64,000 bases of DNA from Escherichia coli (GTDB lineage Bacteria; Pseudomonadota; Gammaproteobacteria; Enterobacterales; Enterobacteriaceae): assembly GCF_044647545.1 (NCBI RefSeq), contig NZ_CP172818.1; one strand, given 5' to 3'. Shown here piece by piece: positions 6,666 through 9,203 of this stretch. A program made the position numbers and the translations under genes. How positions within the stretch are numbered: position 1 is the stretch's first letter; every line of letters starts with the position of its first letter. The notes under the pieces are model-generated. The model ran no database searches. It had not been told where the DNA came from and saw only the letters and a program-made list of their open reading frames with translations.

Positions 6666-7174
6666 TGTTATTTATCGTGAGATATTGCGTGAATAATATT
6701 TTTTCATTGAAAAACAATATAGTAGGGAGCTATTGGGTGGTGGCAAGGTGTTTTATGCTGTTATTTTTATGTGCATTCTGTGCCTCCTGAATTATCACGT
6801 AAAAATCAGACCTTAAAATATCATTATTAGTACGCGGTTATTTACTTTGAACGCATTTATAAAATTATTACATAAAAATAGCGAATATTGCTAAAATCCC
6901 CGCCAACGATGTGTTGACGGGGCTGTGATTATTTTGGCAATAATACCCCGGCATAAGTATTTACCGGATGAGAAAGATATTGTTTAACGCGTTAAGGGGG
7001 GGGGGAGTGAATGTCATTCTCGAGCTCTTTATTCGCTGCCGCTCCGCAAACAGTAACCTTCCACCTTCTCCCATCCACCACCGGCCCCTCGCCTCGTAGC
7101 CGGCCGGCGAGCCCCGGCAGCCAGCATGGTCTCTGCCGGGGTACGGGTGTGGTCAGGCCCCTACTGCCCTCTGC

Positions 7175-7362
7175 GGGGGGGGGGGGGGGGGGGGGGGGGG
7201 GGGGGGGGGGGGGGGGGGGGGGTGCGGTCGGGTCGGCGTTGTGCTCCCGGGGGGGGGGGGGGGGGGGGGGGGGGGGGGGGGGGGGGGGGGGGGGGGGGGG
7301 GGGGGGGGGGGGGGGGGGGGGGGGGGGGGGGGGGGGGGGGGGGGGGGGGGGGGGGGGGGGGG
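7175..7362. repeat. two homopolymeric G tracts (about 48 nt and about 113 nt) separated by about 27 nt of GC-rich sequence
   Basis: Directly visible; generates the poly-Gly (+) and poly-Pro (-) ORFs in the six-frame track. Not a feature of native enterobacterial DNA. Confidence 0.95.
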
Positions 7363-7439
7363 CCTCAGGCAGGGGGGGGAAACCGAGTAATAATGGGATA
7401 TAAGGTAATGGTGAAAAAAGGATAAACGAAAAATAAGAA

Positions 7440-9150
7440 AGTCTATGTATGAATACGCGCTGGAACCCATGCGGTGGCCTGCCTGCAATTTGCTAAATGT
7501 TGGCTTCAGTTAACTTTATCGTTGAGTAGATAATGTAATTGTCTTGGATAGAAAAATGTGATGTAAATGTCTATATTAAAAAGATTTTAGGATGAAAATA
7601 AACTTGATGATTAAAAAAGGCTAAAAGTAAACTAGAATGAAAATTACCAATGTAACATATAAAAATGGTGAATAAACTGATAAGGTGGGAGGAAGAAAAA
7701 TAATGATAGGAATGTGCTATTCATAAATAATATCGGGTCGGTGAGAATTGATAAATTATATGTATCCGATAGATAAAAAATGATAAACTAAGAGGGTAAT
7801 GGAATTAGTATAATGAGGTAAGTAAAATAATTGATATGATCAGAGTGATGGCTGCTATCATGAAAAGTAGTTACTGAATTATGGTCTGTAAGGTATGTAG
7901 CTCTGGGGGCATAAATTAAATAAAAGAAACTATGTTCTGAGAAAAGAAATTATTATTAATAAAATGCATTGTGTAATGATAAAAATAGTTTTTGGCCTGC
8001 ATAGCGTTGTTGATAGTGAATAATTTAGGAAAAAATAGGCCAGCAGAGTGGGTTCCCTGGTCGCGCTGTCTTTGTTTGATGAACTCTTTCAGAGTGCTGT
8101 CATCATCATTTTTCATGAGTAAACTGCGACTCTTTTCAAGGTAAAAACAGTAATCAATTTGAGATTAATTGAAAACTGGAGGGCTGGCTCCTGCATTCTG
8201 CTCCTGCCGGGCTTTTTGATTTGTTAATTTTGATTTATTGTAGGGTGGCTGGCTGCTGTGATAAACTCTTTAAGCTTGCATCTTTTAACGACCTGCGGAT
8301 TGGGGGGCAAGGTTATTTTTGCTTAGATCGTGTTGTAGATAACTGATGTTTTCTACTGTATAGAAAGGAATAATCGTTTTACGTATAGAATTGGCTTAAG
8401 TCTGTGTTGGGGTTATGCGGGTAATTTGACTGATGGGAAAAATTTGGGTAATTTCAGAATGGAATATTTCTGTAAACAGTGAGAATAAGAGGTTATCAGG
8501 TAGATTTTTATGTGGCTGCTTTTTTATCTGCAACAGGGCAGCAAGGAAACGCCATCAGCTTAAGGTCTTTGGAATGCTGATATGGCTGATAAGAGCTGTA
8601 GGTAAAATCATTGGGAAATAGCTGTATAATTACGGGTGAAGTCACAATAAAATTGGGGTGTGAGTGCGGATAGGTCTGACTTTAAGCCTGCCGAGCGGCA
8701 AGGACATCGATAACGCACATTATGGAGGTAAAGAGAATAATTGTATGATACTGTCCGTCAGTTGTCGAGAATGCGTAACCTGATAAGAATAGGAAGCGTA
8801 GTAGTTACTTACTCAGATAATGCTTTGATTGATCAGGTGAGGATTATTTGGCAGGTCGGAGCTTTAAGCAGGTAGCTTGGCTGGTGTGTGGCGATAGTGT
8901 TGGTGTGCGTGGGGTTGAAGTTGGGTGCCTTGGGGTGTGTTGGTGGGGGTGTCTTGGAAGTAAGAGAGAAAAAGTGGGTGAGTGAAGTAGTAAAAGAGAA
9001 GAGAAGAAGGGAAAAAGTAAAGGTTAAGTAATTGAAAAAATGAATAAAATGAGAAAATGGAATTGAGATAAAATAATATGAAAGGTTATGAAATGATAAA
9101 TATGTGATGAATGTATTATTTATTAATAAATATATCGCCTAAAAACAACG
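7440..9150. other. cytosine-depleted, AT-rich low-complexity non-coding block
   Basis: Plus strand is almost entirely G/A/T, with G/T-rich and G/A-rich stretches; no credible ORF, RBS or RNA gene; occupies the position of pqqL-yddB-yddA-ydeM-ydeN in K-12. Confidence 0.8.
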
Positions 9151-9203
9151 CGGGGCAGGGAATGACTGCATTTAATTTTTAGTAGGGTGCGTGGTGACTC
9201 TCG

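What the first reader, a model, noticed from the sequence alone, without database searches (positions are those of the whole stretch)
6984..9203. About 2.2 kb of non-coding low-complexity DNA sits where K-12 carries pqqL-yddB-yddA-ydeM-ydeN
Both flanks are native: the gadB promoter with an intact GAD box on the left and the ydeO 3-prime end on the right. In K-12 these flanks are separated by five genes (about 10 kb: a peptidase, a TonB-dependent receptor, an ABC exporter, and a radical-SAM maturase/sulfatase pair). Here they are separated by about 2.2 kb with no credible ORF, strong strand compositional asymmetry, and homopolymer runs. The block boundaries coincide with the ends of the missing coding sequences, which looks more like a replacement, masking or assembly event than natural divergence.
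Basis: partly seen in the sequence, partly recalled or inferred. Interest (0 to 1): 0.6.

Follow-up and report, generated by a model that had tools for sequence, protein, structure and literature searches.

The report
Garbled gene copy from assembly artefact
The odd 2.2-kb block between gadB and ydeO is not foreign or regulatory DNA: most of it is a corrupted, base-depleted copy of the normal ydeM-ydeN genes, the rest is homopolymer filler, and the record looks like an ST648-type E. coli consensus built on a K-12 template, so this is a data-quality problem and not biology.

Summary
The anomaly is real in the sequence. It spans window 6990-9221 and contains runs of G10, G48 and G114. It is C-poor on the + strand and has no credible ORF.

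It is not a clean replacement of five genes. Positions 7386-9221 are a colinear copy of ydeM, ydeN and the ydeN-ydeO spacer that differs from real genomes almost only by deletions: about 1,400 deleted bases and no insertions. C is lost at 47-100%, T at 22-67%, A and G at 5-21%. Only 6990-7385 (396 nt) matches nothing.

Both flanks are 100% identical to ST648-type E. coli genomes, which carry 10,467 nt here. None of 5,426 complete genomes brings these flanks together.

A second block of the same kind (37160-37490, decaying into poly-A) covers exactly the 498 nt that K-12 MG1655 lacks. The window also follows K-12 at large indels: hipBA is 100% K-12, and the fim deletion junction is K-12's exact junction with ST648 alleles beside it. 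Small indels follow ST648.

The best reading is a non-biological artefact of a K-12-templated consensus or assembly. Biological interest is very low; the record should be flagged.

The parts
6567..6989 (-). Native left flank. It holds the gadB upstream region with the GAD box (6646-6665) and the last 61 nt of pqqL (6929-6989).
   Evidence: 100% identical to ST648-type genomes. Exact GAD box match. pqqL stop mapped from L003.
6990..7385 (.). Orphan filler with no detectable source. It consists of G10 (6996-7005), a 169-nt GC-rich stretch (7006-7174), G48 (7175-7222), 26 nt, G114 (7249-7362) and 23 nt. It stands in for 7,225 nt of the reference (rest of pqqL, yddB, yddA, and the 3' 60 nt of ydeM).
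   Evidence: Homopolymers listed. No blastn match in E. coli. Only chance-level hits in plasmids. No exact match in GTDB genomes. Alignment to the expected local reference scores no better than shuffles.
7386..8192 (-). Garbled copy of ydeM (L003 9292-10390). About 73% of the reference bases are kept, and the kept bases are 97.8% identical.
   Evidence: Deletion-tolerant alignment scores 138 against 18+/-2.4 for shuffles. BLAST alignment. Mapping.
8205..9018 (-). Garbled copy of ydeN (L003 10442-12124). About 48% of the bases are kept. The worst stretch, 8875-9030, contains almost no C. The right limit is approximate.
   Evidence: Base counts per 100 nt.
9019..9221 (-). Garbled ydeN-ydeO spacer plus the last 8 nt of ydeO. 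The final difference from the reference is at 9220/9221.
   Evidence: Per-position differences. ydeO C-terminus changed.
9222..9974 (-). Native remainder of ydeO, 100% ST648 allele.
   Evidence: all 8 informative sites after 9221 carry the ST648 allele.
37160..37490 (.). Second block of the same kind. It is a deletion-only decay of the 5' end and upstream region of dgcF/yneF, ending in poly-A. It covers exactly the 498 nt that K-12 lacks.

Best explanation
The block is not genomic DNA of any organism. It is a corrupted stretch created when the sequence record was built.

The record behaves like a consensus of an ST648-type (phylogroup F) E. coli laid onto an E. coli K-12 MG1655 template:
- Where strain and template are colinear, the strain's alleles are reproduced perfectly.
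- Where the strain has no DNA for a large template segment, the K-12 sequence is kept.
- Where the strain has a large extra segment, it is dropped at K-12's junction.
- Where the consensus engine had poor or out-of-register support, it under-called bases. One base type after another drops out until only a single base survives, which gives a homopolymer.

Junk block 1 (6990-9221) is such a failure over pqqL-ydeN. ydeM and ydeN survive as a deletion-only shadow, and the pqqL-yddA part collapses into G runs and filler.

Shown: the homology, the deletion-only base-specific spectrum, the perfect flanks, the K-12 coincidences and the absence from all other genomes. Inferred: the type of software step (pile-up, polisher or neural consensus on low or misaligned coverage) and what triggered block 1.
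For: 1. Flanks. Positions 1-6989 and 9222 onward are 100% / 99.9% identical to ST648-type genomes. Three such genomes carry the same 10,467-nt pqqL-ydeN segment at 99.97% identity.

2. Homology. Positions 7386-9221 are colinear with ydeM-ydeN-spacer. Scores are 138 and 34 against 18+/-2.4 and 14.8+/-1.5 for shuffles, with 1154/1580 identities and 364 gap columns in BLAST.

3. Error spectrum. There are no insertions, and deletion depends on the base: C 47%, T 22%, A 14%, G 14%. This rises to C 72-100% and T 40-67% in the worse stretches.

4. Second block. 37160-37490 shows the same behaviour with a different surviving base: G 53%, T 49%, C 27% and A 1% deleted, 32 substitutions all to A, no insertions, ending in poly-A. 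It spans exactly L004 26989-27486, the segment absent from K-12.

5. K-12 templating.
- hipBA (17221-18827) is 100.000% K-12 and fills exactly the site where ST648 and SMS-3-5 have none.
- The fim deletion junction at 16372 is K-12's exact junction, with ST648 alleles 17 nt away. No genome has that junction at more than 97.9% identity.
- Small K-12-specific segments (233, 786 and 478 nt) follow ST648.
- The few remaining differences from ST648 include small gaps at the K-12/ST648 indel boundaries.

6. Mixed alleles. Inside block 1, K-12-type and ST648-type alleles are interleaved, about 15 against 14 sites, and 12 of 18 firmly aligned substitutions relative to ST648 coincide with alleles of other lineages. 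Right after 9221, all 8 informative sites are ST648.

7. Uniqueness. None of 5,426 complete E. coli genomes covers the region or brings the flanks within about 600 nt of each other. No genome has the hipBA or Qin combinations seen here.
Against: - Block 1 does not sit at any K-12/ST648 structural difference. The two are colinear there apart from a single 1-nt indel, so what triggered the failure over pqqL-ydeN is unexplained.
- Quality inside block 1 is patchy, not monotonic. A simple model in which read register drifts with distance fits block 2 well but not block 1.
- The 396-nt orphan part, including a GC-rich stretch of normal complexity, has no identified source.
- The K-12 hipBA allele also occurs at 100% identity in natural strains. 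The distal Qin region shows natural-looking third-codon divergence. Each K-12 sign alone is therefore not proof.
- No reads, accession or assembly metadata were available.
Confidence: 0.8

Rival explanations
1. Untrimmed low-quality read tails or contig ends were joined during scaffolding. A noisy single-molecule read running leftward from ydeO loses signal and ends in a homopolymer, and the next contig was butted against it. No K-12 template is involved.
For: The error spectrum is strand-specific, as expected from one strand of one molecule and not from a two-strand consensus. The left edge (6989/6990) is abrupt and the right edge is graded. The errors are dominated by deletions.
Against: Finding no insertions among about 1,400 deletions is unlike any real long-read platform. 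The two blocks decay in opposite directions and end in different bases (G and A), so no fixed signal-dropout order explains both. Block 2 restarts in register exactly at the end of the K-12-absent segment, which a read tail would not know about. K-12 and ST648 alleles are mixed inside block 1.
Confidence: 0.08
2. The stretch was written in silico by a generative or in-painting sequence model, or was corrupted deliberately, and does not come from a sequencing pipeline. The model recalls common E. coli alleles imperfectly, skips bases and degenerates into repeated tokens.
For: Progressive decay into homopolymers followed by a sudden return to correct sequence resembles degenerate autoregressive output. 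The errors are deletion-only skips. Inside block 1 the alleles lean towards those common in other lineages instead of the ST648 alleles of the flanks. The GC-rich orphan text drifts into poly-G.
Against: Over 50 kb of the window is a verbatim ST648 sequence, with one mismatch per roughly 20 kb. That cannot be generated from memory, so real data underlie the record. The size-dependent K-12/ST648 indel pattern is what read mapping to a reference produces.
Confidence: 0.08
3. The block is real DNA: a natural or engineered deletion of pqqL-ydeN replaced by foreign non-coding DNA.
For: Natural partial deletions do exist at this locus. pqqL'-yddB-yddA are missing in strains SC477 and PSJ-07.
Against: About 1.84 kb of the 'insert' is the resident ydeM-ydeN sequence itself. 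The remaining 396 nt has no homolog anywhere searched. None of 5,426 genomes has the flanks adjacent. From general knowledge, a G114 tract would be highly unstable during replication, and outside the two junk blocks no run in this window exceeds 9.
Confidence: 0.02
4. The block is real DNA: ydeM-ydeN decayed in place through pseudogene erosion or a targeted hypermutation process.
For: The copy is colinear and sits in the correct place and orientation.
Against: About 1,400 micro-deletions, no insertions and few substitutions lie within 3.2 kb, while 14 kb of flanks show no differences from relatives. The loss is base- and strand-specific and ends in a homopolymer. No known mutational process (deaminases, DGRs, slippage) deletes half of all C's. 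A second locus 28 kb away shows the same pattern with a different base and matches a K-12 indel exactly.
Confidence: 0.02

Closest known systems
Reference-templated (mapping-based) consensus genomes with reference bias
   Same: Reference-only segments are kept verbatim (hipBA is 100% K-12). Large sample-only insertions are lost at the reference's junction (fim, 16372). Small indels and SNPs follow the sample. The resulting mosaic is found in no natural genome.
   Different: Such pipelines usually leave N's, reference sequence or clean gaps. They do not usually leave a base-depleted shadow collapsing into G114 or poly-A. Block 1 also lies where template and sample are colinear.
Pile-up or neural polishing failure on long insertions or low coverage, where stacked insertion columns drift out of register
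   Same: Block 2 is perfect at the start of the insertion, degrades progressively, is dominated by deletions, biased towards the locally commonest base, and recovers abruptly where the template resumes.
   Different: I could not identify the tool. A literature search turned up nothing relevant. Block 1 is patchy instead of progressive and is about 10.5 kb long.
Poly-G artefacts of two-colour Illumina chemistry (no signal is read as G)
   Same: There are long G runs with no biological counterpart.
   Different: Those artefacts are limited to the 3' ends of reads of 300 nt or less, and they give substitutions, not deletions. They do not explain the poly-A block or the 1.8-kb deletion-only gene copy.
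Natural deletion polymorphism at pqqL-yddB-yddA
   Same: It is the same locus. Strains SC477 and PSJ-07 lack part of pqqL together with yddB and yddA.
   Different: Those strains have clean junctions and intact ydeM/ydeN. The junction seen here is absent from all 5,426 genomes.

Membership tests
Natural gadB-ydeO deletion variant | The same junction is found in independent genomes. | tested here: not met
   A query of the two joined flanks found 0 of 5,426 genomes with both halves in one place. No record covers 80% or more of 5000-11500.
Natural gadB-ydeO deletion variant | The deleted genes are absent from the interval. | tested here: not met
   ydeM and ydeN are present as a colinear garbled copy.
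Horizontally acquired insert or genomic island | The insert has coding capacity or homologs elsewhere. | tested here: not met
   There are no credible ORFs. The orphan 396 nt has no match in E. coli, plasmids or GTDB genomes.
Pseudogene decay or hypermutation | A mixed spectrum of substitutions, insertions and deletions, with flanks showing comparable divergence time. | tested here: not met
   No insertions against about 1,400 deletions, with base-specific loss. The flanks are 100% identical to relatives.
Homopolymeric contingency (phase-variation) tract | A short tract (about 6-20 nt) in a promoter or at a 5' CDS, conserved in position among relatives. | tested here: not met
   The tracts are 48 and 114 nt. 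Relatives carry pqqL-yddA coding sequence at this place instead.
Two-colour Illumina poly-G artefact | Only G runs, at read ends, with no indel signature. | tested here: not met
   The sister block ends in poly-A. The bulk of the anomaly consists of deletions. Read-level evidence cannot be tested here.
K-12-templated consensus or assembly | Segments the sample lacks are identical to the template. | tested here: met
   hipBA 17221-18827 is 100.000% MG1655 and is absent from ST648 and SMS-3-5 at exactly that site. Caveat: the same allele exists in natural strains.
K-12-templated consensus or assembly | Large sample-specific insertions are lost at the template's junction, while the sample's alleles remain beside it. 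| tested here: met
   The junction at L004 3184|7802 equals K-12's junction, with an ST648 allele 17 nt away. The best natural match to the junction is 97.9%.
K-12-templated consensus or assembly | Artefacts sit at the boundaries of template/sample indels. | tested here: inconclusive
   Block 2 equals the K-12-absent 498 nt exactly, and small gaps sit at 19484, 50335 and 57412. Block 1, the finding itself, lies in a colinear region.
K-12-templated consensus or assembly | Read coverage collapses or becomes one-sided in the affected regions. | not testable with these tools
   No reads or record metadata are available.

The most novel reading that the evidence does not exclude
The sequence is real DNA. 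An ST648-like strain would carry a locus in which ydeM-ydeN were riddled with strand-specific single-base deletions and pqqL-yddA were replaced by G tracts longer than 100 nt. That would need a previously unknown, locally targeted, deletion-generating mutagenic process, or an engineered construct. A second such site would exist at dgcF.
Probability: 0.02. Interest if true: 0.85.

Novelty: not a real feature. Interest (0 to 1): 0.06.

Why it matters
The value is for data quality only. Taken at face value, the record would produce several false calls:
- loss of pqqL, yddB, yddA, ydeM and ydeN next to the acid-resistance genes
- an altered YdeO C-terminus
- a truncated dgcF
- presence of hipBA and Qin in an ST648 background

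Each of these would contaminate pangenome, gene presence/absence or association analyses. The signature found here is a usable flag for similar corrupted stretches in other records: deletion-only, base-specific dropout ending in a homopolymer, between flanks identical to close relatives, together with template-specific indel states.

Tried and rejected
1. A global alignment with nearly free deletions across the whole 10.5 kb. It threads any sequence onto the reference, so it overfits. I replaced it with local alignments tested against shuffles.

2. Looking for a source of the 396-nt orphan part. Nothing was found in E. coli genomes, plasmids (chance-level hits with E-values of 0.1 or higher), exact 31- and 42-mers in GTDB genomes, or the expected pqqL region.

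3. A fixed dye or signal-brightness dropout order (PacBio-like). Block 1 read on the minus strand would fit G<A<T<C. Block 2 loses G, then T, then C and keeps A, which fits on neither strand. Rejected.

4. The template of block 1 being the ST648 allele or any single reference. Every one of 10 references leaves 30-43 mismatches, and the alleles are an interleaved K-12/ST648 mix.

5. The window's hipBA and Qin as pure K-12 fallback. hipBA is 100% K-12, but the distal Qin region is 83-97% identical with third-codon-type divergence. Qin is therefore ambiguous: it may reflect cross-mapped prophage reads or a real prophage.

6. Searching for a natural close relative with the same architecture. None was found.

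7. A literature search for a documented polisher failure of this kind. It returned nothing directly relevant.

8. The replaced length (10,467 nt) is close to a 10-kb processing chunk. I noted this only as an untested idea.

Full report
**1. What is in the sequence**

Window 6990-9221 is grossly abnormal.
- It starts abruptly after 6989 with G10. A 169-nt GC-rich stretch follows, then G48, 26 nt and G114.
- From about 7386 to 9221 the + strand is poor in C (0-18 C per 100 nt) and GC skew reaches +0.77.
- The only ORFs of 60 aa or more overlapping it are poly-Gly/poly-Pro read-throughs of the G runs and two ORFs of 62 and 66 aa.
- The GAD box of the gadB promoter is intact at 6646-6665 on the minus strand.

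**2. The flanks and what should lie between them**

- Positions 1-6989 are 100% identical, and 9222 onward 99.9-100% identical, to phylogroup-F ST648-type genomes: strain ST648, IMT16316, strain 3150 and others.
- In those genomes the two flanks are separated by 10,467 nt holding pqqL, yddB, yddA, ydeM and ydeN. Three of the genomes are 99.97% identical over this stretch.
- K-12 is colinear there, with 10,466 nt and a single 1-nt indel.
- The left edge of the anomaly is 61 nt inside the pqqL 3' end. The right edge is 8 nt inside ydeO, so the predicted YdeO ends ...SALGLIIC* instead of ...SALAI*.

**3. The interior is mostly a degraded copy of the resident genes**

- A sensitive BLAST of 7370-9200 hits ydeN and ydeM in 5,381 genomes at about 77-79% identity.
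- The alignment of 7659-8874 to ydeM-ydeN has 1154 identities, about 62-75 mismatches, 364 deleted reference bases and no inserted base.
- Deletion-tolerant local alignment extends the copy left to 7386 (L003 9292, 60 nt from the ydeM stop codon), with a score of 138 against 18+/-2.4 for shuffles. It also bridges the worst part, 8875-9030, with a score of 34 against 14.8+/-1.5.
- In total, 7386-9221 (1,836 nt) stands for 3,242 nt of reference. About 73% of ydeM bases and about 48% of ydeN bases are kept, and the kept bases are about 98% identical.
- Loss depends on the base. C is deleted at 47%, rising to 72-100% in bad stretches. T is deleted at 22-67%, A at 12-21% and G at 5-16%.
- The remaining 396 nt (6990-7385) replace 7,225 nt (pqqL, yddB, yddA). 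They match nothing: not the local reference, E. coli genomes, plasmids or GTDB genomes by exact word.

**4. Why this cannot be natural DNA**

- About 1,400 micro-deletions with no insertions, specific to one base and one strand, sit inside 3.2 kb. Meanwhile 14 kb of flanks show no change from close relatives. No known mutational process produces that.
- Tracts of 48 and 114 G are far beyond anything else in the window, where outside the two junk blocks no run exceeds 9.
- None of 5,426 complete E. coli genomes has the block, and none brings the two flanks within about 600 nt of each other.

**5. A sister block and the K-12 connection**

A scan for homopolymers found a second block at 37160-37490.
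- It copies the 5' end and upstream region of dgcF/yneF perfectly at first.
- It then loses G (53%), T (49%) and C (27%) while keeping A (1% lost).
- All 32 substitutions are to A, and there are no insertions.
- It ends in poly-A and snaps back to perfect sequence.
- It covers L004 26989-27486, which is exactly the 498-nt segment that K-12 MG1655 lacks.

That led me to compare the whole window with K-12 and ST648. The window carries ST648 alleles throughout, with about one mismatch per 20 kb. Its large-scale structure, however, is K-12's.
- hipBA (17221-18827) is 100.000% MG1655 and fills precisely the site where ST648 and SMS-3-5 have no hipBA.
- The 4.6-kb fim segment of ST648 is missing at K-12's exact junction (L004 3184|7802). 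ST648 alleles lie 17 nt to the right and 114 nt to the left of that junction. No natural genome matches the junction above 97.9%.
- A Qin-type prophage interrupts ydfJ, as in K-12. It is 99-100% K-12 for 2 kb and divergent after that.
- Small K-12-specific segments (233, 786 and 478 nt) follow ST648 instead.
- Several of the few remaining differences from ST648 are small gaps at K-12/ST648 indel boundaries.
- No complete genome has these combinations.

This size-dependent pattern is what mapping a strain's reads to a K-12 template and calling a consensus would produce.

**6. Alleles inside block 1**

- At sites where ST648 and K-12-type references differ, the garbled copy carries K-12-type alleles at about 15 sites and ST648 alleles at about 14, interleaved over tens to hundreds of nt.
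- Twelve of 18 firmly aligned substitutions relative to ST648 coincide with alleles of other lineages. The rest are mostly C>A or C>G.
- Immediately right of 9221, all 8 informative sites are ST648.
- No single one of 10 references explains the copy.
- Such a fine-scale blend is not recombination. It fits a template only partly overwritten by sparse sample data.

**7. Interpretation**

Best explanation (confidence about 0.8 that the block is non-biological, somewhat lower for the specific route): a failure of consensus building in a K-12-templated reconstruction of an ST648-type genome.
- Block 2 fits a concrete mechanism. A long insertion relative to the template is stacked in pile-up columns that drift out of register. 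Support decays with distance from the anchor, gaps win the vote, and the locally commonest base takes over until the template resumes.
- Block 1 shows the same error grammar, but it lies where template and strain are colinear and its quality is patchy. Its trigger is not explained. Possible causes are low or one-sided coverage, or a failed processing chunk. The replaced length of 10,467 nt is close to 10 kb, which I did not test.

Rivals:
- Untrimmed noisy read tails joined at contig ends (about 0.08). Against it are the total lack of insertions, the opposite decay directions with different surviving bases, and the exact K-12 coincidence.
- In-silico generation or deliberate corruption (about 0.08). 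Against it are more than 50 kb of verbatim ST648 sequence and the mapping-like indel pattern.
- Real deletion-substitution, or real in-place decay (about 0.02 each).

**8.

The suspicion of an artefact is supported. The description 'five genes replaced by non-coding low-complexity DNA, with edges at CDS ends' is not: two of the five genes are still there in garbled form, and the edges lie inside pqqL and ydeO.

**9. Novelty and interest**

This is not a real biological feature, and its interest is very low apart from flagging the record. The decisive checks are read mapping, long-range PCR from gadB to ydeO (10.9 kb against 2.7 kb), and PCR for hipA, the fim usher and ydfJ to test the K-12-template prediction.

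Noticed in passing
window 37160-37490: A second garbled block. It is a deletion-only decay of the dgcF/yneF 5' region that ends in poly-A runs (13, 28, 10, 16 and 17 A). It coincides exactly with the 498 nt absent from K-12 MG1655, and it destroys the N-terminal part of the diguanylate cyclase gene.
   Followed up: yes
window 17221-18827: hipA-hipB are 100.000% identical to K-12 MG1655. They are inserted exactly where ST648 and SMS-3-5 genomes have no hipBA, between flanks that are 100% ST648-like and only 87-95% K-12-like.
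   Followed up: yes
window 16372: The fimbrial usher (ydeT) truncation junction is identical to K-12's (L004 3184|7802, with 4.6 kb of the ST648 fim operon missing), yet ST648 alleles lie right beside it. No complete genome matches this junction above 97.9%. SCU-172 and MSB1_4I match both halves at 99.6%, but with about 340 nt extra between them.
   Followed up: partly
window 57418-64000: A Qin-type prophage interrupts ydfJ, as in K-12 (ydfJ is intact in ST648). The first 2 kb or so (ynfT, ydfK, pinQ) are 99-100% K-12. After that, tfaQ, stfQ, nohA and beyond are 83-97% identical with third-codon-type divergence. No complete genome exceeds about 97% over 55500-64000. This could be a real prophage or cross-mapped reads from other prophages.
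   Followed up: partly
window 16669, 16860, 19484, 22045, 50335, 57412: Outside the junk blocks, the differences from ST648 are three substitutions (15946, 16400, 16866) and six small deletions of 1-4 nt. Three of the deletions (19484, 50335, 57412) sit at boundaries of K-12/ST648 indels and look like junction artefacts.
   Followed up: partly
window 9204-9221: The corruption runs 8 nt into ydeO. The ORF gains 3 codons and its C-terminus changes from ...SALAI to ...SALGLIIC. An annotator would call this a variant YdeO.
   Followed up: yes
L001 (SC477) 3429-4731 and L002 (PSJ-07) 3429-5890: Natural strains show genuine, clean partial deletions of pqqL-yddB-yddA at this locus while ydeM and ydeN stay intact. 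The region is therefore naturally polymorphic, but with different junctions.
   Followed up: no
L003 (strain ST648) 9232-10390: In the ST648 reference record ydeM is annotated as frameshifted, because of a 1-nt indel relative to K-12 at L003 9641. IMT16316 and strain 3150 have an intact ydeM.
   Followed up: no
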